Assembly (NCBI GenBank): GCA_902630355.1
Contig: CACOUL010000010.1
Span: 567-64,566, forward strand
DNA: 64,000 nt
Direction of reading: 5' to 3'
DNA from: Planctomycetaceae bacterium
GTDB lineage: Bacteria > Planctomycetota > Planctomycetia > Pirellulales > UBA7805
Numbering within the stretch: the stretch's first letter is position 1; every line of letters starts with the position of its first letter. Below the pieces are notes generated by a model, which saw nothing but the letters and a program-made list of their open reading frames with translations, was not told the DNA's origin and searched no databases. Both the position numbers and the translations under genes were made by a program. This document shows positions 20,610 through 59,825 of this stretch, one piece after another.

Positions 20610-20670
20610 CTTTTCGGATGACTCGATCGGGTAATCTTTACAGAATAGAAGCCAAGGAGTACTGCCTTCG

Positions 20671-22167: not shown

Positions 22168-22176
22168 AGATACACC

Positions 22177-22704
22177 ATGCAGATATTGCTGACCGAAGAT
22201 GAATTACGAGAAGGTGTCCATCGGATGACCTCCGAGATTGCCGAGCATTACGGCAATCGCCCCCTGACGATTGTCGGAATCCTTACCGGAAGCGTCGTGT
22301 TGATGGCCGACATGATTCGCCTCCTGGAAATGCCGCTTCGTGTGGGCGTGCTTCAGGCCCGCAGTTATCACGGTCCAACAACCACGCGCGGTTCTTTAAT
22401 AATTAACGACGATCTGATGCCCGACATTGAGGGCCGTGAGGTGTTGTTGCTCGATGATATTTTCGATACCGGCCACACACTCAAAGAGGTAGAAACTCGC
22501 ATTCGTCGTTTCCATCCAGCCGATGTACGTTCCTCCGTCTTGCTCTACAAGGAGGGGCGGCAGGAAGTGAAAATGATTCCGGACTTCATCGGCTTTAAAA
22601 TCCCCAATGAATTCGTGGTCGGTTACGGACTCGATTATGAGGATGCGTACCGTAACCTGCCCTATTTGGCCGCACTCGAGGAGGAAGACCTGAAATTGGA
22701 ATAG
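22177..22704 (+). CDS. hpt: Hypoxanthine(-guanine) phosphoribosyltransferase
   Basis: Motifs VLLLDDIFDTGHTL (PRPP loop) and FVVGYGLDY. Confidence 0.9.
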   Translation: MQILLTEDELREGVHRMTSEIAEHYGNRPLTIVGILTGSVVLMADMIRLLEMPLRVGVLQARSYHGPTTTRGSLIINDDLMPDIEGREVLLLDDIFDTGHTLKEVETRIRRFHPADVRSSVLLYKEGRQEVKMIPDFIGFKIPNEFVVGYGLDYEDAYRNLPYLAALEEEDLKLE

Positions 22705-22717
22705 TAGATTGCCCGCA

Positions 22718-23131
22718 TCAGGACTGCGTTAAAAAGTCGCGATTCCCGTCGAGCAACTCCTCGTTTTCCAAAAGTTCTTCCCGCGTCATCCAGTAGATAT
22801 CGGCCACCTCGCGAGGATTTGCCACAGGGGTCGATCCCTCGCAAAGCGAGGCCGCCCACCAGTGGATTCGCGTTTGTCTGCGGGTAACGTTCTCCCAAAG
22901 TTTACCCTGAGGTGTAATCTCCACACTCAACTCTTCCTGCAATTCGCGGCGTAAGGCGATTTCTTGCGTTTCACCCTCCTCCATCCCTCCTCCCGGAAAA
23001 CAGAGTTTCCCCGGCGCCACCACGTGCTGAGATCTACGAATGACCAGGAATTGGGCATCCTGTTGAATGACCGCCACCACCCCTTCGCGGCGCCGTGATT
23101 CCAGTTGAGGGTTTGAGGCACGATTCACCAC
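22718..23131 (-). CDS. NUDIX hydrolase
   Basis: Nudix box GGGMEEGETQEIALRRELQEELSV. Confidence 0.85.
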   Translation of the reverse strand: MVNRASNPQLESRRREGVVAVIQQDAQFLVIRRSQHVVAPGKLCFPGGGMEEGETQEIALRRELQEELSVEITPQGKLWENVTRRQTRIHWWAASLCEGSTPVANPREVADIYWMTREELLENEELLDGNRDFLTQS

Positions 23132-23158
23132 GTATTCCTTTTTACAGGTTTCCCCAAC

Positions 23159-23560
23159 TCACGTTTTGTCGCTCGAGGTAAACGGATCGGGCAGGAGCGC
23201 AGCGAGAGAAACCTCGGTGACTCGATCACTCTGATTTGCATCGATGAGAAATAACACCAAATTCGGAGCAAACTCATACATCACTTGCCGACAGGCACCA
23301 CAGGGGGCGACTCCACCGGGCGAGGCGATAGCCATCGCTTCAAAATCGCGTTCCCCCGCGGTGACCGCACAAAAAACCGCCGTTCGTTCTGCACAATTGG
23401 TGAGGCCGTACGATGCATTTTCGACGTTGGTACCTGCATACAGCGATCCCGACTTTCCTAAGAGCGCGGCTCCCACCTGAAACTTCGAATAGGGGGCATA
23501 GGCTTGCTGTGAGGCAGCCCGCGCCATTGCAATGAGTTGATCCCTTCGGTTGTCGTCCAT
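23159..23560 (-). CDS. cdd: Cytidine deaminase
   Basis: Zinc motifs CAERTAVF and PCGACRQVM; small homotetrameric-type length (133 aa). Confidence 0.9.
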   Translation of the reverse strand: MDDNRRDQLIAMARAASQQAYAPYSKFQVGAALLGKSGSLYAGTNVENASYGLTNCAERTAVFCAVTAGERDFEAMAIASPGGVAPCGACRQVMYEFAPNLVLFLIDANQSDRVTEVSLAALLPDPFTSSDKT

Positions 23561-23590
23561 TGCGTTTCCTTCTATTGGTTTCCGGGGAAT

Positions 23591-24889
23591 TTAGTTCCCA
23601 GTTTCCGTGATGTGTTCCATAACAAGAGGAGAGAGGGTTGGTCGTTCGGGGCCTATTTCAATCGCCTCGCGCAAATGGTCCAACCAAGCTGCAGCGGGCG
23701 GGTCATCGGCAAAGATTCGCGCAAGAAGCTGACCTTCCTCCACCTCCTGACCTATCTCCACGCAAAGTTCAATTCCGACCGATGGATCGATCAAATCTCC
23801 CAATTCTTGTCTTCCTCCTCCGAGTTGGACAACAGCTCTTCCGAACCGGCCGGCATGTATTTGGGTAACAGTTCCCGCCTGTTTGGCGATAAGTGTCGTG
23901 GCTTTGGCCACTTTTCGTTCCGCGTCGAGCGATCCCCCCTGCGCGGTGACCATCTGAGCGAATTTTTCCCGCCCATGCCCAGTCTCAAGCAACGTTTCCA
24001 AGCGGCGTTCCGCTACTTGGAAATCACTTTCCACACCGGCCGCCAGGAGTGCTTCGGCACCGAGGGCGAGTGAAATATCGCGCAAGCCGCGGGGCCCGCC
24101 ACCCTCGAGGGTCGCCACCGCCTCATTCACTTCGACCGCATTTCCGAGCATTCTTCCCAGCGGCTGTTCCATGTTGGTGATCATGGCCCTGGTGGCCACC
24201 CCCATTTGCGACCCGAGAGAAACCATACTTTGCGCCAGGCTGCGGGCGTCTTCCACATTTTGCATCGATGTGCCCGAACCGCATTTCACATCCAGAATCA
24301 ATGCGTCCAATCCTTCTGCTAGTTTTTTACACATAATGCTGCTGGTAATTAATGCCAAGGAAGGCACCGTTGCCGTTACATCGCGAAGCGTATACCACTT
24401 TTGGTCTGCGGGTGCGATTTGTCGACTCGTCCCCGTAATGGCACAACCGATTTCCTGCACCTGCCGCTGCAATTGCTCAAGCGTAAGATCGGTGCGAAAT
24501 CCCGGGATCGCTTCGAGTTTATCGAGCGTGCCCCCCGTAATACCGAGTCCTCGGCCGGAAATCATCGGTACCCGAAGCTCACAGCAAGCCAACAGTGGTG
24601 CGAGAACAAGTGATACCTTGTCCCCCACCCCACCGGTCGAATGTTTGTCAATCAGCGGGCGATCGTCCTCAGGCCAACTCAGCGTGGTGCCGCTTTCGAG
24701 CATCTCGAGTGAGAGGGCATAAATTTCCTCCTCGTGCATTCCCCGAATACAAATGGCCATCGAAAGAGCTGCCATCTGATAGTCGGGTATTTCGCCGCTC
24801 ACGTATGCACGGATGAACCACGCAATCTCTTCTTTTGTGAGAGATTTGCCATCTCGCTTCTTAGCAATAATTTCTGTGGCGTGCATCAT
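23591..24889 (-). CDS. deoA: Thymidine / pyrimidine-nucleoside phosphorylase
   Basis: Motifs DKHSTGGVGDKVSL, SGRGLGITGGTLDKLE, CGSGTSM. Confidence 0.9.
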   Translation of the reverse strand: MMHATEIIAKKRDGKSLTKEEIAWFIRAYVSGEIPDYQMAALSMAICIRGMHEEEIYALSLEMLESGTTLSWPEDDRPLIDKHSTGGVGDKVSLVLAPLLACCELRVPMISGRGLGITGGTLDKLEAIPGFRTDLTLEQLQRQVQEIGCAITGTSRQIAPADQKWYTLRDVTATVPSLALITSSIMCKKLAEGLDALILDVKCGSGTSMQNVEDARSLAQSMVSLGSQMGVATRAMITNMEQPLGRMLGNAVEVNEAVATLEGGGPRGLRDISLALGAEALLAAGVESDFQVAERRLETLLETGHGREKFAQMVTAQGGSLDAERKVAKATTLIAKQAGTVTQIHAGRFGRAVVQLGGGRQELGDLIDPSVGIELCVEIGQEVEEGQLLARIFADDPPAAAWLDHLREAIEIGPERPTLSPLVMEHITETGN

Positions 24890-24926
24890 GCGATGTGATG
24901 ATTCATCGAGTGTGAATTTTCTCAGG

Positions 24927-25787
24927 TTACTTTGAGAGCTCTCTGCCCGACTGAGTGTAAAAGTTCAAAATACCGAGGAGTATTTTTTTTATTTTCTGTC
25001 CTGCGATCGCAGCGATTTCAATTACTTCCTCTGCGGTCGTCTCGGTCAATGCATCCGGCCGGCAGACGTTGGTGATTGCCGAGAATGCAAGGGTCCGTAC
25101 GTCATATGACTCGGCAACGAGGACCTCGGGAATCGTCGACATTCCTACCGCATCGGCCCCGAGCTTGCGCAGGTAACGATACTCGGCCCGCGTCTCGTAA
25201 TTGGGACCCAGGTGTCCGGCATAGACACCCAGAGGCGCCTCAAAATCGTTCTCTCGCGCAATATGGCGTGCCATGGATTGCAATTCCGGGTGGTACGGTC
25301 GAAGCGTCGACTGGGCCCACATCGTGGGAGCGATATTGGGAATCCCATATTCGGGTCGCCTATGCATTCGATTCAAGTGACCGTTAATCACCATCACATC
25401 CCCAGCAGAAAAACCCGGATTCAGACCGCCTGCGGCGTTCGAGACGATGAGCGTGTCGATGCCAAGGCGGCACATCACATGTACCGGCAGCGTGACGTTT
25501 TTTGTGGAGTATCCCTCATACAGATGGAACCGTCCCTGCATGACAATGACCTTCACGCCGCCGAGTTCCCCACACACAAATTGCCCATGGTGTCCAATCG
25601 CCGTCGATTGGGGAAAATGGGGAGTCTCTTCGTAAGGTACCGCACACGGTTGCTCGACCGCCGTTGCCAAGTTCCCCAAACCGCTGCCTAAAATAATGCC
25701 GACCCGTGGCGTGTTGTCCCATCGAGACTTCACATATTGGGTCGCCTCCTCGATTGCCACCCCCGGAGTCACTGAATCGCTATGCAT
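24927..25787 (-). CDS. punA: Purine nucleoside phosphorylase, trimeric PNP-I type (Asn at the base-specificity position)
   Basis: Motifs GIILGSGLG, HFPQSTAIGHHG, MQGRFHLYEGY, SNAAGGLN, GPNYETRAEYR, GADAVGMSTIPEV, FSAITNVC. Confidence 0.88.
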   Translation of the reverse strand: MHSDSVTPGVAIEEATQYVKSRWDNTPRVGIILGSGLGNLATAVEQPCAVPYEETPHFPQSTAIGHHGQFVCGELGGVKVIVMQGRFHLYEGYSTKNVTLPVHVMCRLGIDTLIVSNAAGGLNPGFSAGDVMVINGHLNRMHRRPEYGIPNIAPTMWAQSTLRPYHPELQSMARHIARENDFEAPLGVYAGHLGPNYETRAEYRYLRKLGADAVGMSTIPEVLVAESYDVRTLAFSAITNVCRPDALTETTAEEVIEIAAIAGQKIKKILLGILNFYTQSGRELSK

Positions 25788-25833
25788 GGCATATTTTTCC
25801 TGCCGTGGCAGCTTCGTCTTCTACGTGCGATTG

Positions 25834-26664
25834 CTATCCTTTGCCAATCTGCTTGACAACGCCTTCGACCAGTTCTCGCAGTTTCGGTTCTGCTGAGTTG
25901 GCGACGGCAATAATCTCGTCCACCACGGCAGGCTCAAGTGCGTCGGCGAGACACATGTCAGTCACAACCGAAAAACCAACCACCTTGAGACCGCAATGGA
26001 CGGCCGTAATGACTTCGGGCACGACCGACATTCCCACGACGTCGGCGCCAATCAATCGCAAAAAGCGATACTCGGCCCGCGTCTCGAGATTAGGCCCCGT
26101 AACAGAGACTAACACTCCTTTATGGGCAACGAAGTCGCATTTCCGCGCGATCGCAAGTGCAGCATCGACCATTTGAAGGTCGTATGGCTCTGACATATCC
26201 GGAAAACGCGGACCGAGTCGATCGTCGTTCACTCCGATCAGTGGGTTATCGGTCATTAAGTTGATATGATCCTCAATCACCATAATGTCTCCTGCCCGGT
26301 AATTGGGATTCATGCCCCCCACCGCATTAGAGGCAATCAACCATTCGGCACCCATGGCTCGCATCACTCGGACCGGGAGGGTGATCAGTCGTGCTGCGTG
26401 GCCTTCGTAAAGATGAACGCGGCCTTCCATGGCAACGACTGGAATCCCCTCGATTTTCCCGCAGATCAGTCGGCCGCGATGGCTGGTGGCTGTGGAACTG
26501 GGAAAGTGGGGAATCGACTCGTAATCGATTTGAGTTTCCACGTCGATCCGTTCGACGAACGGCCCGAGGCCGGTTCCCAGAATAATGCCGGCTCGGGGCT
26601 GTTCGTTCCATTGCCCGGCAATGAAAGCCTTGGCCTCTTCAATTTTATCGTATAGATCGAGCAT
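25834..26664 (-). CDS. Purine nucleoside phosphorylase paralogue, trimeric PNP-I type (Asp at the base-specificity position)
   Basis: Same motif set as the neighbouring copy (GIILGTGLG, HFPSSTATSHRG, MEGRVHLYEGH, GPNLETRAEYR, GADVVGMSVVPEV), but FSVVTDMC replaces FSxITN. Confidence 0.88.
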   Translation of the reverse strand: MLDLYDKIEEAKAFIAGQWNEQPRAGIILGTGLGPFVERIDVETQIDYESIPHFPSSTATSHRGRLICGKIEGIPVVAMEGRVHLYEGHAARLITLPVRVMRAMGAEWLIASNAVGGMNPNYRAGDIMVIEDHINLMTDNPLIGVNDDRLGPRFPDMSEPYDLQMVDAALAIARKCDFVAHKGVLVSVTGPNLETRAEYRFLRLIGADVVGMSVVPEVITAVHCGLKVVGFSVVTDMCLADALEPAVVDEIIAVANSAEPKLRELVEGVVKQIGKG

Positions 26665-26675
26665 GTTTTGACCCG

Positions 26676-27398
26676 CTAGTAATTTCCCGTTGTTTCGCCG
26701 GTTGATTTTTCTCCCCGCTCTTCACGCACCAGCGCCTCGGTACTGCTGGTCCCGAGTCGCGAAGCGCCGAGACCGATAAATGCCCGGGCGTCGGCGAGGG
26801 AGCGGATACCTCCCGATGCTTTGACGCCGCGCGAAAAATGCTTTCGCATCAGGCAGATATCATCCTGTGTTGCCCCGGTCGATTGTAGATTTCCATCCGA
26901 ACCTTTAATAAACCCAAAACCGGTAGACGTTTTCACATATTCCGCCCCGGCGCGTTCCGAGCAACCGCAGATTTGCACTTTCTGCTCATCATTCTGCAGC
27001 AGGCCCGTTTCAAAGATCACCTTGACCAGCGCGCCATGTTGGGAGGCCACCTGGACCACTTGGCGAATATCTTCTTCCACATAGGACCAATCGCCCTCCA
27101 GCGCGCGGCCGACGTTGACCACCATATCGAGTTCCACTGCCCCGTCACGACACGCTGCTTCTGCTTCGGCCACTTTGGCATTTGTGCTGGTGCCCCCGTG
27201 AGGGAAGCCGATCACGGTGGAGACTTTCACGCTGCTTTCAGTGAGTCTTTCCGCAGCGCGGGTCACCATGCTCGGCTTAACGCAAATACTGGCGACCCCC
27301 AGTTGGTCGCATATGGCACAGGCCACATCGAGGTCGGCGAGCGTTTGCGTGGGGTGCAAGACCGCATGGTCAATGTATTGGGCAATCGAGTCTGACAT
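26676..27398 (-). CDS. deoC: Deoxyribose-phosphate aldolase
   Basis: Motifs ICVKPS and VSTVIGFPHG, Schiff-base region YVKTSTGF, GVKASGGIR. Confidence 0.9.
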   Translation of the reverse strand: MSDSIAQYIDHAVLHPTQTLADLDVACAICDQLGVASICVKPSMVTRAAERLTESSVKVSTVIGFPHGGTSTNAKVAEAEAACRDGAVELDMVVNVGRALEGDWSYVEEDIRQVVQVASQHGALVKVIFETGLLQNDEQKVQICGCSERAGAEYVKTSTGFGFIKGSDGNLQSTGATQDDICLMRKHFSRGVKASGGIRSLADARAFIGLGASRLGTSSTEALVREERGEKSTGETTGNY

Positions 27399-36277: not shown

Positions 36278-38479
36278 TTAAGGATCCGGTTGCGTTTCAA
36301 GCACGTTTTTCGCTGTCGCTTCTGCCCTCTGAAAAAAACGATCATCCAGTCGGCGACAACCTTCCTTGATGTAATAGTCTACCAATTCGATCCTAAGATC
36401 TCGGGGCGTCAACACCCCGGCTTCCCAGCGGACGAATAGATCTGCGTGTTGTCGCCTGCGTCGCACGATTCCTTCAAACTCTTCATCACCTGCGGCCCCA
36501 CCTTCCAATGTATCGAAGGCATCCAGTCGAAAGGCGTTACGAGTATTTGAGTACTCACGACTCGCCTCCTGCGCAATGGCATCGAGCGTTTGAACAACGG
36601 CACCCAATTTGGCGGCGGCAACCAAGTCGATATTCTGATTAATCCCAGTGGCATTGGTCAGCGCCGACCTCAGTGCAGGTGTCTTTTCCGCTGCCTCCGC
36701 TAACTGCAATCGCATCGCTTCAAACCAGGTGAGGGAAGGGTTCAACGTACCGTTCCGCATTTGCTGAGCGAAATGATCGTATATCTCCTGTTCGATCTGT
36801 CGTCTCGGCGAATACATCGTTCGGCAGCGGTGGACCACAACGGTGTCGGGAGAAAATAAAGGTCCCGTTGGGGAAAGAAAGTGATCGGGCATGGAGACAT
36901 CCAGTTTCGCTAGGTTAGCCAGCGTATTTCCCTTGGCCGGATGTTCATCAAGTGGAAAAAAATCCTCCAGCGGCCTGTCAGTCTCTTGCGCACACAAAAG
37001 AAGTAGTCCCGCACAATAGCCCTCTATTCGCTTTCCCTTCAAATCAGTTCCTTTTAATGATTTGATCGCATCGGTCTGGAAATTGAGATCAAATTTCGAA
37101 TTATTGCCAATAATTGAATTTGCAATTCGCCCCATGGTACTCGAGACGTCGCTATTTTCATGCCGGAGAATAACGAAATCGAGAGTGCGTTCAACAAACT
37201 TGTCGACGGGAGTCGCTGGAATGACATTTCCGATTTCAGGTAAGTCGACAACCACAAAGCGTCGCCGCCCATCTTCTCCCACTTCCGTAGTTACGACACC
37301 AGCGTGGGTATAGAGCCCCGGATGAAGATCAGTGAACCGATTGTAAGGAGATGGATTTTTCATCAAAAGCCAATCACCTGCTCGTACGACAGCTAACCCA
37401 AAACGATAATCTTCTTCCTCAGCGCCAAATTGATCACGCTGATCGAACCATTCGATTAAATCGGCTCGACGCTTTCTGTCTGATTCACTTAAATTGATTG
37501 GCTCCAACCGATCAAGATAACCGGAAATTGCCGAAGCCGTGATGATCGGTGGAGTCAGCGATTGATCACCAGGATCTCGTGCATCCTGCGGCACCCCGAT
37601 GTGACGTATCGTATCGGCCACAAAAATAAGCAACTCAGGGCTAATATTTTTCTGGCGAAAAAGTTGCGCTAACAACGGAAGCAATCTTACATCTCTCGCC
37701 GCCCGTGCAAGCTGTAATATTTTCCCTTTCAAGTGATCCGATAATTGTGACTGCGTGGGATCAACGATAGTATCCAACAAATAACTCAGCGATGTTAAAG
37801 CGCCAACCGCATGCCGTTTTTCAATATAAAGATCAAGCAAGTCGTCGTAATCTTCCGAGTCAGACTCGAGTTCGTAGCCGACATCCGAAAAAAAATCGAC
37901 CGTATAATAGCGAAGCCTCCCGGATAATTTGATCAATTCCGTTGCGCACCCCAGAAAATGCCGAGCGGCCTCAGTACGGATTTCTTGGTCTTCGATCGCA
38001 GCAAACTCAGCCCGCTGTCGATACAGTTGGCTTAGTGCACGGTTAATTTTTATATCGACATCCAAAATACGGCGAACCATTGAGAGCAAGTCAGCATTGG
38101 TTATGTCGCTTCCAAACGTGCTTTGCGCGACAATCCACCTCTCAACTTCAGGGACCAGCGATTTAATTTCTTGAGTGGTCTGAAGAGTATGCCCTTCGGC
38201 TACTTTCGGTATGACATCAAGCAACCGCGCAACCGGCGTAGTTTGGGCGTCGCAAATACCATGGGAATAGAAAAGAACTCCCACCACCAACAGCAACACA
38301 CCGCAATGCTTCGTCAAAAACGATCTTTGAAGATTAAAGATGTTTTCGGTGCGCGCGAATGGCGTTGGACGGCGTGCTTGAAGGTGCGCAAAGGACATAG
38401 CAGTGTACGGGCTCACGTATTGAGAGGAAGCCACGAAAAAATGTTTCGCTGTGATGGTCAGCGAAGTCGATTCGACCAT
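36278..38479 (-). CDS. Large hypothetical exported/membrane-anchored protein with a central permuted-papain (YiiX/C92)-like segment
   Basis: Hydrophobic N-terminal segment CGVLLLVVGVLFY. The central GDWLLMKNPSP...YTHAGVV...VILRHEN...FDLNF...EGYCAGLLL resembles the His-then-Cys order of YaeF/YiiX amidases. Start uncertain (38479 or 38401). Confidence 0.55.
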   Translation of the reverse strand: MVESTSLTITAKHFFVASSQYVSPYTAMSFAHLQARRPTPFARTENIFNLQRSFLTKHCGVLLLVVGVLFYSHGICDAQTTPVARLLDVIPKVAEGHTLQTTQEIKSLVPEVERWIVAQSTFGSDITNADLLSMVRRILDVDIKINRALSQLYRQRAEFAAIEDQEIRTEAARHFLGCATELIKLSGRLRYYTVDFFSDVGYELESDSEDYDDLLDLYIEKRHAVGALTSLSYLLDTIVDPTQSQLSDHLKGKILQLARAARDVRLLPLLAQLFRQKNISPELLIFVADTIRHIGVPQDARDPGDQSLTPPIITASAISGYLDRLEPINLSESDRKRRADLIEWFDQRDQFGAEEEDYRFGLAVVRAGDWLLMKNPSPYNRFTDLHPGLYTHAGVVTTEVGEDGRRRFVVVDLPEIGNVIPATPVDKFVERTLDFVILRHENSDVSSTMGRIANSIIGNNSKFDLNFQTDAIKSLKGTDLKGKRIEGYCAGLLLLCAQETDRPLEDFFPLDEHPAKGNTLANLAKLDVSMPDHFLSPTGPLFSPDTVVVHRCRTMYSPRRQIEQEIYDHFAQQMRNGTLNPSLTWFEAMRLQLAEAAEKTPALRSALTNATGINQNIDLVAAAKLGAVVQTLDAIAQEASREYSNTRNAFRLDAFDTLEGGAAGDEEFEGIVRRRRQHADLFVRWEAGVLTPRDLRIELVDYYIKEGCRRLDDRFFQRAEATAKNVLETQPDP

Positions 38480-40302: not shown

Positions 40303-42507
40303 ATGCGTTTAACCCTCAGAACCTTGCTCGCCTATTTGGATAATATTCTGGATGATCATGATCGGATTCTTCTGGAAAAAAAGATCCAAGAAAGTGACTT
40401 CGCGCAAAATCTGATTCGACGAAGTCGCGACACGATGACTGATCAAGATTTGTCCGCCATGGATCCCATTGGATACGGGATTCGGCAAGACCCGAATCTG
40501 GTCGCTGAGTATCTGGATAACACGATGGCAAATGAGCAGATTGAGGAATTTGAACGCCAATGTTTGGATATGAGTTCCGATGCGGACACGCGACTCGCCG
40601 AAATCACAGCATGTCACCATATTCTGACGATGGTTCTGGGAGAACCTCTGCAATTTGCGGCCTCGAGTCGCGAACGGATGTATCGCATAGGTGATGATGG
40701 AGCCACTCCACTTGCGGCCGGAAACAGCGAGTATGAGAGTGCCACTCCGGTGAACTCACAAACTGTCAGCGATGCTGTGGATGAAACGCATGACAGTACT
40801 GAAACCGATTCAGAACTGGATTTCGAGTCGGGCTCCAGAATCCCCGGATATCTCCGAGATGATGAAAAACGGAGTCGGTGGCTGCCACTGGTCGCAACCA
40901 CCATGGTTGCCGCCGTTATTACCGGCCTGTTGTTGGTTCTGTTCGGTTCCGATCAACCGGTCGAAGAGTCAAATAATGGGATTGCCAGAACGGAATTGCC
41001 GGCAAGCGTCACGGGGGAGGCACCCGCCGAGGGTGATGAATCGCCTTCCGGCGCGGACGAGGCCCCATCCGCTGCACCGGTGGCTTCGCCACCCGCCGCC
41101 AATGCAACTGGAGAACCGGGCGTTGCCGATGTTGCACCGCCTCCGCGAGCAGTCACCCCAGAGACTCCAGAGCCCACACCGCAAGCGGAATCTGAAGAGT
41201 CCCCGCAAACCGCTTCCGCCGGTGCAGGGGAGGATTCCGCGGACGTACCGGACACCCCGGAAGAAAGTACCTCATTAGGGGATGAGTCGCCTGACAATGT
41301 GGCAGACAAAAAAGATCCAAGTAAAGACGAAGATCGGCCGGATGCGCAAGAGAATGCGCCAAGTGATGCAGGACAATCGGTCAAGCAAGTGTTGGGACGG
41401 CTCATTTCGGATGATCAAATTTTGCTTGCAACGCGAGCAGGATTCGATGATTTCCGTTGGCTCCCCCCACAATCCAATCTAGAGACGGGACATCAACTTT
41501 TGGCGTTGCCTACTTTTCGTCCCAATTTAGTGATGATTGCCTTAACAGTCGAACTTGAGGGGGGCTCTCTCCTGAGCCTTCTCGATCTCAACGAAGGTGG
41601 GGTACCCACGATTAAATTATCGTATGGTCGTATGGTCGTGCGCACTAATCGTAATGACGGTACGTTTAAACTGACGGTGAACCAAGATCGCATTATCGAG
41701 ATCACCTTAGAAAGTACGGAAACGATCATCGGAATTGAAGTCCAACCCCAGCAGCAACCCGGCCTTGATCCGGAGTTATCTGAGCAACAGGTGGCAGTCA
41801 ATTTATATGCAATGAGTGGCGCGGCAACGTGGCACGAGGGCGCGATCCACGGAACGGTGCAAGCAGGCCAAAATCAGAATCTGACTCAGATGCCTCCACC
41901 GGAACCGGAGTCGGTATTGCAAATTCCGGAATGGATGGAAAAGGCACAGATGACCAAACTGGAATCGAGAGCGGTTCCCGCCATTCGAAACGTGGTGCAA
42001 GCGGATCGAAGCGTGAAATTAAGCTTGTTGGAGTTGGTCGAAAAGCGCCGCCAAGTAGAAGTCAAGCAACTTGCGCTGCGGTGTTGCGCCCATATCGGTT
42101 ATTTCGATCCTCTAATCGAGGCGCTTGGAGATGAGAAAATGAAGTCCCGTTGGGGGAACTGTATCCTGTATCTGAGCGACGCCGTATGGCGCGATCCTGA
42201 ATATGCAAAACGTGTTCGCACGTCATTGGAAGATATTCGTAATGAAAAAGGATTTGATCTTTATCGCATGCTTTGGGGTTATACCAATGAAGGCCTCATC
42301 AACAATGGCGAAGCCACCCAATTAGTCGAGTTTCTCTCCAGCGACGACTTGGACTATCGCGTGCTTAGTCACTGGAATCTGAATCAAATCACGGGGAAGG
42401 GGTATTCCTACCAGCCTCAGAAATCGGAACAACAGCGAAAGGGATCGTTAAAAAGATGGCAATCATTGCTCGATAAGGGGAACATCAAGCATTCAAACGA
42501 GAATTAG
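40303..42507 (+). CDS. Membrane-anchored protein with an anti-sigma-like N-terminus, a Pro/Glu/Ala-rich linker and a C-terminal helical-repeat region
   Basis: N-terminal LRTLLAYLDNILDDHDR, TM helix WLPLVATTMVAAVITGLLLVLF, low-complexity region at about 40950..41400. Confidence 0.65.
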   Translation: MRLTLRTLLAYLDNILDDHDRILLEKKIQESDFAQNLIRRSRDTMTDQDLSAMDPIGYGIRQDPNLVAEYLDNTMANEQIEEFERQCLDMSSDADTRLAEITACHHILTMVLGEPLQFAASSRERMYRIGDDGATPLAAGNSEYESATPVNSQTVSDAVDETHDSTETDSELDFESGSRIPGYLRDDEKRSRWLPLVATTMVAAVITGLLLVLFGSDQPVEESNNGIARTELPASVTGEAPAEGDESPSGADEAPSAAPVASPPAANATGEPGVADVAPPPRAVTPETPEPTPQAESEESPQTASAGAGEDSADVPDTPEESTSLGDESPDNVADKKDPSKDEDRPDAQENAPSDAGQSVKQVLGRLISDDQILLATRAGFDDFRWLPPQSNLETGHQLLALPTFRPNLVMIALTVELEGGSLLSLLDLNEGGVPTIKLSYGRMVVRTNRNDGTFKLTVNQDRIIEITLESTETIIGIEVQPQQQPGLDPELSEQQVAVNLYAMSGAATWHEGAIHGTVQAGQNQNLTQMPPPEPESVLQIPEWMEKAQMTKLESRAVPAIRNVVQADRSVKLSLLELVEKRRQVEVKQLALRCCAHIGYFDPLIEALGDEKMKSRWGNCILYLSDAVWRDPEYAKRVRTSLEDIRNEKGFDLYRMLWGYTNEGLINNGEATQLVEFLSSDDLDYRVLSHWNLNQITGKGYSYQPQKSEQQRKGSLKRWQSLLDKGNIKHSNEN

Positions 42508-51678: not shown

Positions 51679-51828
51679 GACACTTATTTTTGCACGGTGG
51701 TATCGAACCGAAAATCGTTTCAACGCTCGTCGTCAGTCGGTCAATCCACGCTCTAGCCTTCCAAGAAGTCGTGATTGGCGACTATTGGTTGTACCGTTTT
51801 TAAATCAGTTACACAAAACGTTACAGTA

Positions 51829-52839
51829 ATGGTTATGGAAAAAATTCAGGACATTCTCGACTACTTTCCGGTCGATTGTGTCTCAACGCAAGTGGAGAGT
51901 TTAGGGTCGGCTGGAGGTTTCAGCGGTGCTCTGCTCTGGAAAGTCCATGCTCCCCGGGGGCCGCTTTGTCTGCGACGTTGGCCGCGCGAACATCCGTCGC
52001 AAAAACGACTCGAGTTTATTCATGGATTACTGGGGCATGTGGCAACCAATGGATGCCCTATCGTGCCAGTGCCCGTTCATTTGCGATCCAGTACACCGTC
52101 GACGTTTGTGAAACAGGATGGCTATTTATGGGAGCTTGCGCCTTGGATGCCGGGAGAGGCCAATTTCGAACAAAATCCATCGACTGAAAAATTGTGTAAC
52201 GCGGCACGCGCGCTCGCCTCTTTTCATCATGCCTCGTCCGACTACCGGAGACCGACCGCATCGAGTGGGCCCGCTCCGGGGGTTTGCGAGCGGTTGGAAA
52301 AAACGCGCATTTGGCGACAGAATGATTTGGAGCGAATCGATGCCCAGATCAAAACAACAAGCACGCTTGCTTCCCCAATCGATATCGGTCAATCGCAAAT
52401 GATTCTGAATCATGCAAAAAATACGATTGAGGCAGTCGAGCGCGAGCTATCGGCGCTTTCCACATTGGACGTACCGATTCAATCTTGTATTCGCGACGTT
52501 TGGGAGCAGCACCTTTTGTTTTCGGGAGACGAAGTCACCGGACTGGTCGATTTTGGTGCGGCCCGCCCCGATACTGTGGTAGTGGACATCGTACGACTTT
52601 TAGGGAGCCTTGCCATCAACGACCAGCAATTGTGGAAAATAGGCCTTCAGGCGTACGAATCATTGCGTCCACTATCGTCGGCCGAGCGATCCCTGCTCCC
52701 GGCACTCGACCGTAGCGCCATACTGCTTTCGGGGTTGAATTGGCTTCGCTGGATTTTTCTTGAAAATCGCAACTTCAGCAATTGGTCTGCAGTCACTTCG
52801 CGTTTGAACAAAATTATTACACGTATTGAAAATAGTTAA
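51829..52839 (+). CDS. Phosphotransferase-family (APH/CotS/homoserine-kinase-II-like) protein kinase fold
   Basis: LWKV...LRRWP N-lobe; IRDVWEQHLLF...GLVDFGAA catalytic/DFG-like segment. ATG 51829 preferred over TTG 51775. Confidence 0.65.
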   Translation: MVMEKIQDILDYFPVDCVSTQVESLGSAGGFSGALLWKVHAPRGPLCLRRWPREHPSQKRLEFIHGLLGHVATNGCPIVPVPVHLRSSTPSTFVKQDGYLWELAPWMPGEANFEQNPSTEKLCNAARALASFHHASSDYRRPTASSGPAPGVCERLEKTRIWRQNDLERIDAQIKTTSTLASPIDIGQSQMILNHAKNTIEAVERELSALSTLDVPIQSCIRDVWEQHLLFSGDEVTGLVDFGAARPDTVVVDIVRLLGSLAINDQQLWKIGLQAYESLRPLSSAERSLLPALDRSAILLSGLNWLRWIFLENRNFSNWSAVTSRLNKIITRIENS

Positions 52840-52993
52840 ATATCTATGAGTCGTAGCTTGCCTTTGTGCAATCCTTAATTTGATTGTCTCATCCCCCGTA
52901 CAATGACCGATAATCCTCAGGAAGATTACATTGACCGGCACGCCGGGGCCGCAATACAATAAAGAGTCCAATCTCTACGGCAGGGACCCTTCG

Positions 52994-55405
52994 ATGCGAT
53001 TTCGCTCGTTACTCACATCGCGACACCGTGCTTTTCTCGTCACGGCAGCAGTGCTAGCGATCGCGCTGCCGTTCGGAGGCGAAGTCCAGTCCCGGGCGGC
53101 CGAACGGGTAGAAGTGTCGGCCCAAATTTTTCCTCAGCAGGGGGCAAAGGCAGAACTGCGGATCACGGCAAAAATTATCCCCGGTTGGCACATTTATTCG
53201 ATCACACAAAAGCCGGGTGGGCCCAAACCGACGCGCATCAATTTAGTCGCCTCCAATCGTTACCGCATTGCAGGGGATTTCGTCGCCGTGCCCCCGGCCG
53301 TAGTTCACCACTACGACTTCTGGCCCGATCTTGATGTCGAGGAGCACGAGCAGCAGGTGACGTGGTCCGTCCCAATCGAGGCAGAAAACGGCTGGCAGGG
53401 CGTTACGATCGCGGGAGATGTCCAGGGACAAGTTTGCAAGGATCTCTGCGTCAATTTTTCGCAAACATTCGAGGCAAGCGTTGCCCCCGGTGCGGCCGCG
53501 ATCAGCGACTCGACCGCTGGCCTGCCTCCCCCAGTCTCATCAGTCAGCCCCCAGTCGCAACAAAACCTCCGATCCGAATCATTCAGTACGCCTTACGTCG
53601 ATGTTTCGGGCGAACTGGTACCTGGAGGTGTGGAGGAGGAAGGTCGAACGCAATTGATTCTTCGGGCAACGCTCGCGCCCGAATGGCACGTCTACGCTTA
53701 CGAAAAGCAGGCACCATCCGACCCCGTCCGATCGCGTCCGACGCTCATCGTACTGGATCAGCGGGATGGTCTCCTTGCCGGCACGCCTCGGGCGAGTTCG
53801 CCAGTGATTAGCAAAGCGCGCGATCAGTTCCCGGAGTACGTCGATAATTTTCACCATGGCGATGTTGATTGGATTATCGACATCGAGGTGCCTGACGATG
53901 CACGCATAGGGACCCATACCCTCAGTGGCTGGTTTGGTTTTATGGCGTGTAAGGACGACGGAACGATGTGCGATCCCCCCAAGGCAGCAAAGTTTGAAGT
54001 CAATCTTGAAGTGGGACAGAAGTTGGCGACGAACAGCAGGGTAACGTTCGTTTCAACAAGCTATGCGAAAGCGGCTTCTGCAGCAGAACGGGCCGCTCCG
54101 TGGGATTTAGTGATTCCGCAAGCGAAAGCATGGACCTGGGGTTCGCTGATCACCAACATGGGGTGGGCCCTGCTGGCCGGCCTGTTGTTGAATGTGATGC
54201 CATGTGTTTTGCCCGTCATAGGGCTCAAGGCAATGTCGTTTGTGCAACAGGCAAATGAAAGTCGGAGCCGTATTCTGACTTTGAATCTGGCGTTTTCTGC
54301 TGGGATTCTTTTTGTATTTCTGATCCTGGCGCTGTTTGCGGCTTTTGCAGGCCTCGCCTGGGCAGACCAGTTTCAGGATCCACGCTTTGGAATTGCCATG
54401 GCGTCACTCGTTTTTGTGTTTGCCTTGAGTCTCTTGGGCATCTGGGAAATTCCGATTCCCGGTTTTGTCGGCTCGAGCGCCGCGCAGTCTGTCGCCGAGC
54501 GAGAGGGCCTTTCGGGCGCATTTTTTAAAGGCGTCCTGAGTACACTTTTGGCCACGCCGTGTGTGGGTCCGTTTATGTTTACCGGGCTCACGTTCGCCGC
54601 CGAACAACACTCACCCGTAATCACGCTGGTTATTTTCGGTGCGATGGGCATCGGCATGGCGCTCCCGTTCCTGCTGATCGGTGCCTTCCCCGCCTGGATT
54701 CGCTTTCTTCCAAAGCCTGGAGCGTGGATGGAATCTTTTAAGCACTTGATGGGGTTTGTCTTGCTGGGAACAGTCGTTTGGATCTTTTACGCATTCGTGC
54801 CCGACCATTACTTTGTTCCCGCACTCGGTTTACTTTTCGGACTCTGGCTGGCTTGTTGGTGGGCCAACCGTACCCCGATGACCGCTGCGCTACCGGATCG
54901 GCTTTATGGTTGGTTGGTTGCGGCGGTACTCGCCGCTTTCACAGGATATGCCTCATTCGCGCTACTCGAAAAATCACCCCAACCGCAAACTGCCCAGGCC
55001 GCCTCAGGCGACTGGGAACTTTTCTCACAAGAAAAGCTCGATCGCCTCCGGGAGCAGGGCTCGACGGTGCTGATTGATTTTACGGCCGACGGCTGACTGA
55101 TCTGCAAAACAAACGAGGCAGTTGCCTTGCAAACCGAGACGACCGAGTCGTATATGCGCGAGAATGGAATTATTGGTCTTATTGCCGATAAGACAGAAGA
55201 AGCCCCGGAAATTGATCGCCTCATGCTCGAACTGGGGCACAGTAGTCTGGGAATTCCGCTTTACGCTCTCTATCCGTCCGATGGACGCCCCCCGATTGTT
55301 TTCAGTGGGTTATTAACCGAAGGGACGCTGCTGGACCGATTGAGGGAGGCAGGGCCATCACGCGGGTTCGGCACCCAGACGGCCAGGGCATCGATTCCCA
55401 AGTAA
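52994..55405 (+). CDS. dsbD: DsbD-family thiol:disulfide reductase with an in-frame TGA (55094..55096) at the first Cys of CxxC: candidate selenoprotein, otherwise a pseudogene
   Basis: ORFs 52931..55096 and 55127..55405 share one frame and are separated only by this TGA. Read-through gives a contiguous thioredoxin-fold domain (DFTADG-U-LICK ... LGIPLYALYP). Upstream are two alpha-like domains with Cys pairs and a membrane beta domain (MPCVLP, TPCVGP). Signal-peptide start at ATG 52994. Confidence 0.65.
55114..55129 (+). promoter_or_regulatory. Candidate bacterial SECIS-like hairpin downstream of the in-frame TGA
   Basis: CGAGGC-AGUU-GCCUUG: 6 bp including one G-U pair, with apical loop AGUU starting 23 nt after the UGA. 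A second hairpin lies at 55139..55151. Confidence 0.35.
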
Positions 55406-58473: not shown

Positions 58474-58811
58474 TCTCAAGGCCATGGGAATCATGCGCTC
58501 CGCATATCACGCGGTGAAAAACGTACTGTAGGGCATGTTTTTAAGTATCGTGCCGGAGTGTTTAATTGGGCAATTCAGGCGACCTGGCTCAACTCTTTTT
58601 GCTAGCAGTGATTGATTTGTGAGCAAAGCCAGTTTTTGAGCTTCTTCGCACAATGAATCTGGCTTACCTCCTTTTACCCTTTCGCAGACGTGTTCTAAAC
58701 TTCAGGAGGGGTTCGTGACGAATGAAGGAGTTGAGTGGATTTATTTGTTTCAGGAAATAAATAAGGGTCAGATAAGTGCTGCAGAGAGTATGGATTAAAG
58801 GAAGCCGACAT

Positions 58812-59825
58812 ATGATTCGCAGCTTGCTGCTTGTGGCCACTCTCGTGGTCAGCTTTGCCGCACAGAACTCTGGTGCCCAGGACTGGGCAACGAAGATGTT
58901 TGATCGCGTGGAATACGATTTTGGAAGTCTTGCCCGCGGTGCCAAATCTGAACACACGTTTAAAATTAAAAATCACTTTGAAGAAGACATTCGCATTCAA
59001 AGTGTCCAGTCCAGTTGCGGCTGTACTATCCCACAGATCAGCAAAGAAGTTCTGGCCTCAGGTGAAGAAGCCGAGTTGGTGACTGAATTCGATACGATCA
59101 AGTTCAAAGGACCTCACTCGGCAACGATTACGGTTACGTTTGCCCCACCCTTCTCCGCTGAAGTTCGGCTGCAAGTTCGAGGTTATGTCAGACAGGATGT
59201 CGTTTTCGAACCGGGTCGCATTGAATTCGGCCAGGTTCCCGCCGCTGATGGCGCCAGCCAAGCAGTTGCGATCTCGTACGCCGGTCAGGACGGCTGGAAA
59301 ATAGAGGATGTCCGCAGTGCCAGCGATAATTACGAAGTTGAACTTCGTGAACTTGAACGCGCAGGCAGTCGCGTGGAATACGAAATGCTCGTCCGCCTCA
59401 AAGAGACTGCACCCACCGGCTATCTCAGCGATCAATTGACGTTGGTCACAAGCGATTCAGAAAGGCGTTACATTCCCCTGATGGTTGAAGGAAGGGTTGT
59501 GCCGGCCGTTGATGTAGAACCCAAATCATTGCATCTCGGAGTGGTCAGGCCCGGAGAGTCAGTAACGAAACAACTGGTGGTTCGTGGAACGACACCCTTC
59601 CGCATTCTTGATGTTGCCTGCGAGAAGCCAGATGATTGTTTCCAGTTTGCGGCAAACGATAAAGAGAGAAAGCTGCATTTAATTCCGGTCACGTTTACAG
59701 CAAGCGATACTCCGGGGAAAATTGTGGAAACAATTCAGATTACCACAGGGTCCCAGATCGCTGCCGATTCGGGTGATCAAAAAGCACTTGAGGTCGTGGC
59801 GCACGTGGAAGTACTCGAAGATTAA
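58812..59825 (+). CDS. DUF1573-like secreted protein (Ig-like/ASH repeats)
   Basis: Signal peptide MIRSLLLVATLVVSFAAQNSGAQD; hallmark F.F.N....I..V.SSCGCT motif. Confidence 0.72.
   Translation: MIRSLLLVATLVVSFAAQNSGAQDWATKMFDRVEYDFGSLARGAKSEHTFKIKNHFEEDIRIQSVQSSCGCTIPQISKEVLASGEEAELVTEFDTIKFKGPHSATITVTFAPPFSAEVRLQVRGYVRQDVVFEPGRIEFGQVPAADGASQAVAISYAGQDGWKIEDVRSASDNYEVELRELERAGSRVEYEMLVRLKETAPTGYLSDQLTLVTSDSERRYIPLMVEGRVVPAVDVEPKSLHLGVVRPGESVTKQLVVRGTTPFRILDVACEKPDDCFQFAANDKERKLHLIPVTFTASDTPGKIVETIQITTGSQIAADSGDQKALEVVAHVEVLED

What the first reader, a model, noticed from the sequence alone, without database searches (positions are those of the whole stretch)
55079..55135. In-frame TGA at the first Cys of the CxxC motif of a DsbD-family reductase: candidate UxxC selenoprotein
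The ORF track breaks a DsbD-like gene into 52931..55096 and 55127..55405. Both pieces are in the same frame, and the only interruption is one TGA (55094..55096). Reading through gives ...GSTVLIDFTADG-[TGA]-LICKTNEAVAL...LGIPLYALYPSDGRPPIVFSGLLTEGTLLDRLREAG. This is an intact thioredoxin-fold gamma domain colinear with E. coli DsbD as I remember it (MLDLYADWCVACKEF ... LGLPTILFF). The TGA falls on the column of the first, attacking Cys of the CxxC motif (U-L-I-C). The rest of the electron relay looks intact: two alpha-like periplasmic domains with Cys pairs (CKDLC and CKDDGTMC) and a membrane domain with MPCVLP and TPCVGP. Sec replacing Cys in the redox motif of a thioredoxin-fold protein is the classical signature of bacterial selenoproteins. 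I cannot tell whether a Sec-containing DsbD fusion of this architecture is already catalogued. The competing explanation is a TGY-to-TGA nonsense mutation or a sequencing error.
Basis: partly seen in the sequence, partly recalled or inferred. Interest (0 to 1): 0.85.

Follow-up and report, generated by a model that had tools for sequence, protein, structure and literature searches.

The report
Selenocysteine in a planctomycete DsbD/ScsB reductase
The in-frame TGA is almost certainly a selenocysteine codon at the attacking position of the redox motif of a membrane disulfide reductase; this is a new, publicly mis-annotated member of a selenoprotein type already in the catalogues.

Summary
One gene (52994..55405, +) encodes an 803-residue DsbD-superfamily reductase, interrupted only by TGA at 55094..55096. 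That codon sits on the column of the first Cys of the CxxC motif (Cys461 of E. coli DsbD).

It is not a nonsense mutation or a sequencing error:
- 16 other loci from independent assemblies, down to about 41-46% protein identity, carry TGA at this column (never TAA or TAG). 71 relatives carry TGC or TGT.
- The frame continues as U-x-x-C into a thioredoxin domain under strong purifying selection (dN/dS 0.04-0.06).
- A 6-bp hairpin with an AGUU/GGUC loop starts 17 nt after the UGA (55114..55129). It is kept across all complete TGA loci with compensatory changes and meets the published bacterial SECIS consensus.

The N-terminal region is a tandem Ig-fold domain with a CxxxC motif, best matched by ScsB.

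Not shown: the window has no selA, selB, selD or tRNA-Sec, so the decoding machinery could not be checked, and selenium incorporation is untested.

Novelty is modest. UxxC "thiol:disulfide interchange protein" selenoproteins have been catalogued since 2004 and 2008. This planctomycete full-length clade is not listed and is split in public annotation.

The parts
52994..55405 (+). Complete selenoprotein gene: ATG 52994, Sec-UGA 55094..55096, stop TAA 55403..55405; 803 residues with U at position 701.
   Evidence: sequence and translation. The start matches that of the 96%-identical P0001. Domains.
52994..53098 (+). N-terminal signal-peptide-like segment (MRFRSLLTSRHRAFLVTAAVLAIALPFGGEVQSRA). The extent is inferred.
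   Evidence: Read from the sequence: a charged n-region followed by a hydrophobic helix. The model shows a helix at residues 9-24 and then a low-confidence linker. No signal-peptide predictor was run.
53108..53482 (+). First periplasmic Ig-fold (alpha-like) domain, residues ~39-163, with the invariant CxxxC pair C148/C152 (CKDLC).
   Evidence: Pfam DsbD_N E=2.7e-12. Beta-sandwich at 39-163 in the model. Invariant Cys. Fold hits 6C29 ScsB-N and 6DPS DsbD-N.
53579..54058 (+). Second periplasmic Ig-fold (alpha-like) domain, residues ~196-355, with the invariant pair C319/C326 (CKDDGTMC).
   Evidence: Weak DsbD_N hit E=3e-4, below the Pfam cut-off. Beta-sandwich at 196-355 in the model. The alignment to the ScsB tandem domain spans 317 columns.
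54155..54967 (+). Transmembrane beta domain (residues ~388-658) with the two relay cysteines C404 (MPCVLP) and C523 (TPCVGP).
   Evidence: Pfam DsbD_TM E=4.9e-31 for residues 388-598. The helical bundle runs to residue 658 in the model. Both Cys are invariant.
55094..55105 (+). U-L-I-C redox motif: TGA (Sec701) CTG ATC TGC (Cys704).
   Evidence: The column aligns with the CxxC of Cys homologues and with C461-x-x-C464 of E. coli DsbD gamma. TGA is present here in 17 loci.
55114..55129 (+). SECIS-type hairpin CGAGGC-AGUU-GCCUUG: stem 55114..55119 pairs with 55124..55129, loop 55120..55123. It overlaps codons N-E-A-V-A-L.
   Evidence: Local fold energy -8.5 kcal/mol, in the same register in the TGA loci. 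RNAalifold consensus -8.37 kcal/mol with compensatory pairs. Covariance model scores 60 bits on held-out loci. Meets the consensus in PMC13188914 section 5.
55010..55402 (+). Periplasmic thioredoxin-fold gamma domain (residues ~673-803), which contains the UxxC motif and the conserved Pro region (GIPLYALYP).
   Evidence: Pfam Thioredoxin_7 E=5.3e-10. Profile hits to DsbD gamma structures 2FWE, 1UC7, 1VRS and 6DNL. dN/dS 0.04-0.06 downstream of the TGA.

Best explanation
TGA 55094..55096 encodes selenocysteine. The gene makes one 803-residue envelope reductase of the DsbD superfamily, of the ScsB-like type. Its order is: signal peptide, two Ig-fold alpha domains (CxxxC in the first), a transmembrane beta domain with two relay cysteines, and a C-terminal periplasmic thioredoxin-fold gamma domain whose active site is U701-L-I-C704.

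Decoding (inferred): during translation the hairpin 17 nt downstream (55114..55129, loop AGUU) would recruit SelB-GTP-Sec-tRNA(Sec) to the ribosome paused at the UGA.

Function (inferred by homology to DsbD): electrons from cytoplasmic thioredoxin pass to the membrane Cys pair, then to the gamma U/C pair, then to the alpha Cys pair, then to periplasmic partners. Sec sits at the position of E. coli Cys461. From my memory of the DsbD literature, that is the gamma-domain nucleophile that attacks the alpha-domain disulfide. A selenolate there should speed the inter-domain exchange and resist irreversible over-oxidation.

What is shown: the gene structure, the Sec/Cys column, conservation of the TGA, purifying selection downstream of it, and conservation and covariation of the hairpin. 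What is inferred: SelB-dependent decoding, selenium incorporation, the direction of electron flow, and any kinetic advantage of Sec.
For: 1. TGA, never TAA or TAG, sits at the identical column in window, L001-L003, L005-L007, L009, L016, L020, L022, L023, L033, L035 and in the held-out loci L088, L089, L090. These loci range from 96% down to about 41-46% protein identity. 71 other relatives have TGC/TGT.
2. In all 17 loci the frame continues x-x-C after the TGA. In the 15 loci that are complete, it runs on into a full thioredoxin domain ending at a normal stop.
3. dN/dS downstream of the TGA is 0.041, 0.048 and 0.056 against L001, L002 and L003, with synonymous sites saturated.
4. The hairpin lies at a fixed register (+21..+36). 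Mean local energy is -7.6 kcal/mol in 14 TGA loci against -2.6 in 71 Cys loci, Mann-Whitney p=4e-8.
5. The stem shows compensatory changes: C-G to U-A, G-C to A-U, G.U to A-U. A register-shifted variant GAGCG-GUU-CGCUC encodes a different peptide, NERFAL.
6. Given the peptide NEAVAL and the window's codon usage, the 6-bp stem is expected only about 5% of the time.
7. A covariance model built on 14 loci scores the held-out L088 and L090 at 60 bits; the best Cys locus of the 71-locus set scores 26 bits (L091 was never scored with the model).
8. The hairpin meets all four published bSECIS criteria: 4-nt loop, 6-bp stem, G in the first two loop positions followed by U, 23 nt between UGA and loop, energy at or below -7.5 kcal/mol.
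9. TGA is an ordinary stop for 12 of 41 window genes, so there is no codon reassignment.
10. Complete Sec machinery is reported in other Planctomycetes (PMC4807772).
11. Domain architecture and ScsB-like fold.
Against: No selA, selB, selD or ybbB is present among the window's ORFs of 150 aa or more, and no tRNA-Sec was found in the window or in 19 related loci. The decoding trait of this genome is therefore unverified.

The single-sequence fold of the 73-nt region is no better than shuffles (z = -0.08). No Rfam SECIS family matches. RNAalifold on all 14 sequences fails to recover the hairpin, because three of them are register-shifted.

One Cys-form relative (L091, TGT) keeps the same hairpin, so the hairpin is not strictly limited to TGA genes. 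I read this as a recent Sec-to-Cys replacement.

The TGA loci form nearly one clade, so they are not independent samples. There is no protein-level evidence.
Confidence: 0.9

Rival explanations
1. Pseudogene or artefact: a TGY-to-TGA nonsense mutation, or a sequencing or assembly error, truncates the reductase, and the gamma domain is decaying.
For: In a single sequence, an in-frame stop at a TGY codon is one point mutation away. Public annotation treats the gene as truncated (P0001 'cytochrome c biogenesis protein CcdA', 700 aa).
Against: The same TGA is present in 17 loci from independent NCBI, ENA, JGI and Logan assemblies, down to about 41-46% identity. The downstream domain has dN/dS 0.04-0.06 with no frameshifts or extra stops. 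The second Cys of the motif is invariant.
Confidence: 0.01
2. Genuine termination and a split gene: the alpha-beta part ends at the TGA, and the thioredoxin domain is made separately from an internal start. Gene callers use the TTG at 55127 for this.
For: Gene callers predict a 89-94 aa downstream ORF in every complete locus. DsbD function can be reconstituted from separate domains in E. coli (from my knowledge of the literature).
Against: A product starting at 55127 would lack both U701 and C704, so it would be redox-dead. Yet the stretch between the TGA and that TTG is conserved at the protein level, with C704 invariant in 17/17 loci. It would also lack a signal peptide for export. This model does not explain why the stop is always TGA and always on the Cys column. 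The 'start' TTG is simply the 3' arm of the conserved hairpin.
Confidence: 0.03
3. Sec-independent read-through: the UGA is decoded by a near-cognate tRNA (Trp, Cys or Arg) or is leaky, and the hairpin acts only as a read-through stimulator.
For: The Sec machinery is not demonstrated for this genome. Downstream structures can stimulate stop-codon read-through in some systems.
Against: The position is the catalytic Cys column of a CxxC motif, where only Cys or Sec preserves function. The loop sequences AGUU and GGUC carry the G-U dinucleotide that the published bSECIS consensus expects, at the expected spacing. The Sec/Cys alternation among orthologues is the established selenoprotein signature. 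Related Planctomycetes have complete Sec machinery.
Confidence: 0.05

Closest known systems
'Thiol:disulfide interchange protein' selenoprotein family. Listed in Table 1 of PMC13188914 as PF13098, UxxC, representative WP_011366075.1, citing Kryukov & Gladyshev 2004. [quoted passage not shown]
   Same: Sec replaces the first Cys of the CxxC of a thioredoxin-fold thiol:disulfide interchange domain. From memory, cd02953 is the DsbD-gamma model. Full-length Cys relatives of the window protein also hit PF13098.
   Different: The catalogued examples are from Geobacter, Syntrophus and short marine reads. I could not retrieve their sequences or domain architecture, so I cannot say whether they are full-length alpha-beta-gamma transporters. 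The planctomycete clade, its tandem alpha domain and its conserved hairpin are not described in the papers I could read.
E. coli and Neisseria DsbD (PDB 2FWE, 1UC7, 1VRS, 6DNL, 6DPS)
   Same: Alpha - beta (TM) - gamma order. Two TM cysteines in PC motifs. The gamma CxxC aligns residue for residue, with U701 = Cys461 and C704 = Cys464. DsbD_N, DsbD_TM and Thioredoxin_7 all pass the Pfam cut-offs.
   Different: Cys, not Sec. A single alpha domain. The window protein scores 168.9 bits against the NCBIfam DsbD cut-off of 330, so it is not in the canonical DsbD subfamily.
ScsB (suppressor of copper sensitivity B), N-terminal domain structure 6C29 from Proteus mirabilis
   Same: The best structural match of the N-terminal half is 6C29 (E=6e-9, probability 1.00, 317 aligned columns). 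Two tandem Ig-fold domains. A CxxxC motif (CKDLC). JGI names many homologues 'suppressor for copper-sensitivity B'.
   Different: Only 14% sequence identity, and the RMSD is high because the domain orientation differs. Known ScsB proteins use Cys in the gamma domain. No scsC or scsD partners are adjacent here; the conserved neighbour is an APH-family kinase.
TsoB, the rhodanese/DsbD fusion-like selenoprotein (NCBIfam NF045694)
   Same: A selenoprotein that contains a DsbD-like membrane domain. The window protein aligns to profile positions 177-520.
   Different: TsoB has a rhodanese domain and two Sec in a UxxxxU motif. The window protein scores 152 bits against a cut-off of 805, has no rhodanese domain, and has a single Sec in UxxC.
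Sec-containing thioredoxin, glutaredoxin and DsbA-like proteins (UxxC; Table 1 of PMC13188914)
   Same: Sec at the N-terminal, nucleophilic position of the CxxC of a thioredoxin fold, with the SECIS immediately downstream in the coding region.
   Different: Those are small, soluble, single-domain proteins. Here Sec is one station in an intramolecular, transmembrane disulfide relay.

Membership tests
DsbD superfamily (transmembrane thiol:disulfide reductases) | N-terminal periplasmic Ig-fold (alpha) domain with a redox Cys pair | tested here: met
   Pfam DsbD_N 47.2 bits against a cut-off of 25. C148/C152 are invariant. Fold hits to DsbD-N 6DPS and ScsB-N 6C29.
DsbD superfamily (transmembrane thiol:disulfide reductases) | Central membrane (beta) domain with two conserved cysteines | tested here: met
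   Pfam DsbD_TM 108.2 bits against a cut-off of 27.1. C404 and C523 are invariant in 64 sequences. Helical bundle in the model.
DsbD superfamily (transmembrane thiol:disulfide reductases) | C-terminal thioredoxin-fold (gamma) domain with CxxC | tested here: met
   Thioredoxin_7 39.7 bits against a cut-off of 27 on the read-through product. The profile aligns to DsbD gamma structures with the motif in register. The first Cys is replaced by the TGA codon.
Canonical DsbD subfamily (NCBIfam NF001419) | Whole-protein score above the curated cut-off | tested here: not met
   168.9 bits against a cut-off of 330.
ScsB-type subfamily | Enlarged alpha region made of two tandem Ig-fold domains, one carrying a CxxxC site | tested here: met
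   Two beta-sandwich domains at 39-163 and 196-355. Best PDB fold match is ScsB-N 6C29, E=6e-9. CKDLC motif. The second domain gives a weak DsbD_N hit. The definition of the feature is from my memory of the ScsB structure paper.
ScsB-type subfamily | Genomic association with scsC/scsD-type periplasmic partners | tested here: not met
   The neighbours are an APH-family kinase upstream and a PhyH dioxygenase downstream. No thioredoxin-like partner is adjacent.
Bacterial selenoprotein | In-frame UGA aligned with Cys in homologues (Sec/Cys pair) and conserved among orthologues | tested here: met
   17 TGA loci against 71 TGC/TGT loci at the same column.
Bacterial selenoprotein | The coding sequence continues under purifying selection after the UGA | tested here: met
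   dN/dS 0.04-0.06 over 99 codons. The thioredoxin domain is intact in all complete loci.
Bacterial selenoprotein | bSECIS immediately downstream: 3-9 nt loop, 4-16 bp stem, G in the first two loop positions, 16-37 nt from the UGA, energy at or below -7.5 kcal/mol (PMC13188914) | tested here: met
   4-nt loop AGUU, 6-bp stem, 23 nt spacing, -8.5 kcal/mol. Conserved with compensatory changes. Held-out loci are detected.
Bacterial selenoprotein | The genome encodes selA, selB, selC (tRNA-Sec) and selD | not testable with these tools
   None are in the 64 kb window or in the flanks of related loci. The rest of the genome is not available. Other Planctomycetes have the full set (PMC4807772).
Bacterial selenoprotein | Selenium is incorporated at the UGA position | not testable with these tools
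   This needs 75Se labelling or mass spectrometry.
TsoB (NF045694) | Rhodanese/DsbD fusion with a UxxxxU motif and a score above the cut-off | tested here: not met
   152.2 bits against a cut-off of 805. No rhodanese domain. A single Sec in UxxC.

The most novel reading that the evidence does not exclude
The TGA-carrying genes are an old, nearly monophyletic, Planctomycetota-specific clade of full-length ScsB-like transmembrane reductases. They run a selenylsulfide station inside an intramolecular disulfide relay. Their SECIS is embedded in the first helix of the thioredoxin domain and constrains its coding sequence (K-T-N-E-A-V-A-L). On this reading the clade is a selenoprotein subfamily absent from the 119-family catalogue and systematically split in public annotation. 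It would also offer natural Sec/Cys orthologue pairs, including a Cys form with a fossil SECIS, for testing what Sec buys in a membrane electron relay.
Probability: 0.45. Interest if true: 0.55.

Novelty: new member of a known kind. Interest (0 to 1): 0.4.

Why it matters
The result corrects an annotation error. In every locus whose gene calls I examined this gene is split into a truncated 'CcdA/DsbD-family' protein and a hypothetical ORF of about 90 aa, and all truncated homologues end at this same column. The organism's main envelope reductase is therefore recorded without its active site.

It also indicates that these uncultured Pirellulales-type planctomycetes use selenium, with the selenocysteine placed in the periplasm-facing arm of a transmembrane electron relay. 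The natural Sec and Cys orthologues, and one Cys form that keeps the hairpin, give a tidy system for asking what Sec adds to thiol-disulfide exchange.

It does not change what is known about selenoproteins in principle. Sec at the first position of a thioredoxin-fold CxxC, including in 'thiol:disulfide interchange' proteins, is a long-established pattern.

Tried and rejected
- Single-sequence folding of 55088..55160 was not better than shuffles (z = -0.08). It gave no information either way.
- Rfam found nothing at gathering thresholds for the whole window and nothing relevant in a permissive scan of 55060..55200. I cannot say from these runs which bacterial SECIS families Rfam covers.
- RNAalifold on all 14 TGA loci returned a near-zero-energy alternative structure, because L007, L020 and L035 use a hairpin shifted by one base. 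On 12 in-register sequences it recovered the hairpin.
- The AIRS-domain gene next to the L006 homologue looked like a possible selD. Its sequence reads as PurM-like, so I dropped it as a lead.
- A scan of the window for other in-frame TGA genes gave only noise. The best-looking case (minus strand, ~22720-23560) is two ordinary adjacent genes.
- No tRNA-Sec was found in the window or in 19 related loci.
- phmmer of the single protein against PDB sequences found nothing. The family profile was needed.
- The window's truncated product is not in the contig index, so the source genome could not be identified.
Only residues 1-700 were modelled, so the gamma domain rests on sequence evidence alone.
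- Kryukov & Gladyshev 2004 could not be read, so the architecture of the catalogued Geobacter representative remains unknown to me.
- The covariance-model separation between TGA and Cys loci is circular for the 14 training loci. Only L088, L090 and the partial L089 count as an independent test.
Full report
OBSERVATION. Reading from ATG 52994, the frame runs without interruption to TAA 55403..55405, except for a single TGA at 55094..55096 (...GAC GGC TGA CTG ATC TGC AAA... = D-G-*-L-I-C-K). The ORF list splits this frame into 52931..55096 and 55127..55405. With Cys substituted at the stop, Pfam finds DsbD_N (residues 47-160), DsbD_TM (388-598) and Thioredoxin_7 (673-761), all above the curated cut-offs. 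A second, weaker DsbD_N-like match covers about residues 215-355.

THE TGA IS CONSERVED, SO IT IS NOT DAMAGE. A search of about 5.8 billion proteins returned 962 relatives. Most are 780-900 residues long and carry the thioredoxin domain. A subset of 13 proteins in the top 120 covers only about 83-87% of the query and lacks that domain: P0001-P0005, P0013, P0016, P0026, P0043, P0074, P0095 and P0109, with 96% down to 39% identity, plus the fragmentary P0006. Twelve of these 13 were read (P0006 was not), and all twelve end at exactly the residue before the CxxC motif...FTADG...FTADS...FTANT or ...FTADW. I fetched the DNA for these and for 80 species-representative genomes. In 17 loci the codon at that column is TGA and never TAA or TAG: window, L001-L003, L005-L007, L009, L016 (a Mariniblastus MAG), L020, L022, L023, L033, L035, L088, L089 and L090. 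In all of them the frame continues x-x-C, and wherever the contig allows it runs into a complete thioredoxin domain ending at a normal stop. In 71 other loci the same column is TGC or TGT. The loci come from independent NCBI, ENA, JGI and Logan assemblies. This excludes a sequencing error or a private nonsense mutation.

THE DOWNSTREAM DOMAIN IS TRANSLATED. Over the 99 codons after the TGA, dN/dS against L001, L002 and L003 is 0.041, 0.048 and 0.056, with synonymous sites saturated in the two more distant comparisons. A decaying pseudogene tail would approach 1. The stretch between the TGA and the TTG that gene callers use as a restart (55127) includes the invariant second Cys of the motif. 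That conservation makes no sense if translation restarted there. TGA is the ordinary stop codon of 12 of 41 window genes, so the codon is not reassigned across the genome.

A SECIS-TYPE HAIRPIN. Seventeen nucleotides after the UGA lies CGAGGC-AGUU-GCCUUG (55114..55129), a 6-bp stem with a 4-nt loop and a local energy of -8.5 kcal/mol. It sits in the same register in every complete TGA locus, with loops AGUU or GGUC. Three loci carry a one-base-shifted variant: GAGCG-GUU-CGCUC in L020 and L035, and a weaker 4-bp version with a 5-nt loop, GAGC-AGUUC-GCUC, in L007; these encode different peptides (NERFAL in L020 and L035, NEQFAL in L007). The stem changes are compensatory: C-G to U-A (L003), G-C to A-U (L023) and G.U to A-U (L022, L088).

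Several tests support RNA-level selection on this hairpin:
- Mean local folding energy is -7.6 kcal/mol for 14 TGA loci and -2.6 for 71 Cys loci, Mann-Whitney p = 4e-8. The TGA loci are related to each other, so this p-value overstates independence.
- Given the peptide NEAVAL and this window's codon usage, the stem would form only about 5% of the time. It is nevertheless kept between genes whose synonymous sites are saturated.
- RNAalifold on 12 in-register sequences predicts exactly this hairpin (-8.37 kcal/mol, one broken cell in 72).
- A covariance model trained on 14 loci finds the held-out L088 and L090 at 60 bits, against 26 bits or less for the best locus of the 71-locus Cys set (L091 was not scored with the model).

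The hairpin satisfies all four criteria of the published bacterial SECIS consensus (PMC13188914, section 5): loop of 3-9 nt; stem of 4-16 bp; G in the first two loop positions, usually followed by G or U; 16-37 nt between the UGA and the loop (23 here); and energy at or below -7.5 kcal/mol.

Three negative or neutral results belong beside this. The 73-nt single-sequence fold is not better than shuffles. Rfam has no match. RNAalifold on all 14 loci fails because of the three register-shifted sequences.

WHAT THE PROTEIN IS. A family profile aligns the motif region to solved DsbD gamma domains of E. coli and Neisseria (2FWE, 1UC7, 1VRS, 6DNL). The TGA column falls on the first Cys of 'DLYADWCVACKEFE', which is Cys461. 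An AlphaFold2 model of residues 1-700 has mean pLDDT 83.5. It shows two beta-sandwich domains (39-163 and 196-355) followed by a helical membrane bundle. Its best PDB fold match is the tandem-Ig N-terminal domain of ScsB from Proteus mirabilis (6C29, E = 6e-9), followed among others by the DsbD N-terminal domain 6DPS. The first domain carries a CxxxC motif (CKDLC). The protein scores well below the NCBIfam cut-off for canonical DsbD (168.9 against 330). It also scores well below the cut-off for TsoB, the rhodanese/DsbD-fusion selenoprotein (152 against 805). It is therefore a ScsB-like member of the DsbD superfamily.

MECHANISM (inferred from homology). Cytoplasmic thioredoxin reduces the membrane pair C404/C523. 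That pair reduces the gamma pair U701/C704, which reduces an alpha-domain pair, which in turn reduces periplasmic clients. Sec occupies the position of E. coli Cys461. From my memory of the DsbD literature, Cys461 is the nucleophile that attacks the alpha-domain disulfide (the 1VRS complex). By general selenium chemistry, a selenolate there should speed the exchange and tolerate oxidants.

EVOLUTION. In a neighbour-joining tree of 83 homologues, the TGA forms make up almost a single planctomycete clade. One Cys form without the hairpin (L008) is nested inside it, and L033 sits next to two Cys forms. A further Cys form, L091 (TGT, peptide CMTCKTNEAVAL), retains the intact hairpin CGAGGC-GGUC-GCCUUG in register and shares flanking genes with TGA locus L006. 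The simplest reading is an old Sec-using clade with occasional Sec-to-Cys replacement, in which L091 carries a fossil SECIS. An APH-family kinase gene immediately upstream is conserved in every TGA locus whose gene calls were examined and whose contig reaches upstream and in L091.

WHAT IS MISSING. The window contains no tRNA. None of its roughly 50 substantial ORFs is SelA, SelB, SelD or YbbB. No other in-frame-TGA gene stands out. The flanks of related loci hold no tRNA-Sec. I could not reach the rest of the genome. The only support for Sec-decoding capacity beyond the gene itself comes from the literature: two Porphyra-associated planctomycete genomes (P1 and P2, the latter a Rhodopirellula), Gemmata and Isosphaera have complete Sec machinery (PMC4807772).

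COMPARISON WITH WHAT IS KNOWN. [quoted passage not shown] From memory, cd02953 is the DsbD-gamma model. Sec at this position of this kind of domain is therefore already catalogued. I did not find any description of a full-length ScsB/DsbD-type transporter as a selenoprotein, any entry for Planctomycetes of this type (the planctomycete list in PMC4807772 Table S9 has none), or any dedicated NCBIfam model. Every public gene call I examined splits the gene. I could not retrieve the catalogued representative to compare architectures.

VERDICT. I put the probability that this UGA encodes selenocysteine at about 0.9. Novelty: a new member of a known kind, possibly a new uncatalogued subfamily. Interest is moderate (0.4). 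A specialist would not be surprised by UxxC in a thioredoxin fold. The placement of Sec inside a transmembrane relay, the clade-wide conservation, the SECIS that constrains the coding sequence, and the natural Sec/Cys pairs still make it a useful and well-supported addition and an annotation fix.

Noticed in passing
L091 3092-3140 (protein P0028): This Cys-form orthologue (TGT, peptide CMTCKTNEAVAL) keeps the intact hairpin CGAGGC-GGUC-GCCUUG in the same register as the TGA loci. It shares an APH gene upstream and a PurM-like gene downstream with TGA locus L006. It looks like a recent Sec-to-Cys replacement that still carries a fossil SECIS.
   Followed up: partly
L008 5454: This Cys form (CIICKSNEKLAL) has no hairpin and is nested inside the otherwise TGA-only clade of the neighbour-joining tree. 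It is probably an older Sec-to-Cys reversion.
   Followed up: partly
window 51775-52839 (+), and the equivalent gene in L001-L003, L005, L007, L088, L090, L091: An APH-family phosphotransferase gene sits directly upstream of the reductase gene, even in relatives with only about 39-46% identity. This is conserved synteny of unknown meaning. No periplasmic thioredoxin-like partner is adjacent.
   Followed up: no
window 55127-55405 and the 89-94 aa ORFs called in L001-L006, L088, L090: Gene callers start the orphan downstream ORF at the TTG (or its equivalent) that is the 3' arm of the hairpin. NCBI names the upstream fragments 'cytochrome c biogenesis protein CcdA' or 'DsbD family protein'. This is a systematic mis-annotation.
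   Followed up: yes
protein P0012, C-terminal ~90 residues: After ...GGGGIS the sequence of this Cys-form homologue turns into low-complexity Arg/Pro-rich text and loses the conserved Pro and AGPS motifs. A frameshift in that assembly is likely.
   Followed up: no
window 18862-19836 (+): A Transglut_core-domain gene. PMC4807772 reports such a gene inside the Sec-insertion operon of a Rhodopirellula. Here none of its neighbours is a sel gene, so this is probably coincidence.
   Followed up: partly
window 58776-59825 (+): A DUF1573 (PF07610) protein. That Pfam family has catalogued Sec-containing (UGC) members, but this copy is an ordinary uninterrupted ORF with no in-frame TGA.
   Followed up: partly
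window 19917-27398: A nucleoside-salvage cluster. Confirmed by Pfam: uracil phosphoribosyltransferase, a Na+/nucleoside transporter, thymidine/pyrimidine-nucleoside phosphorylase, two PNP/UDP phosphorylases and a DeoC aldolase. Labelled only by reading the translations: a phosphoribosyltransferase-like ORF, cytidine deaminase and a NUDIX protein.
   Followed up: no
window 6080-7964 (-) and 12962-14926 (+): Two ECF sigma factor / zf-HC2 anti-sigma pairs.
   Followed up: no
window 36278-38479 (-) and 40303-42507 (+): Two ORFs of 733 and 734 residues with no Pfam match at E <= 1e-5.
   Followed up: no
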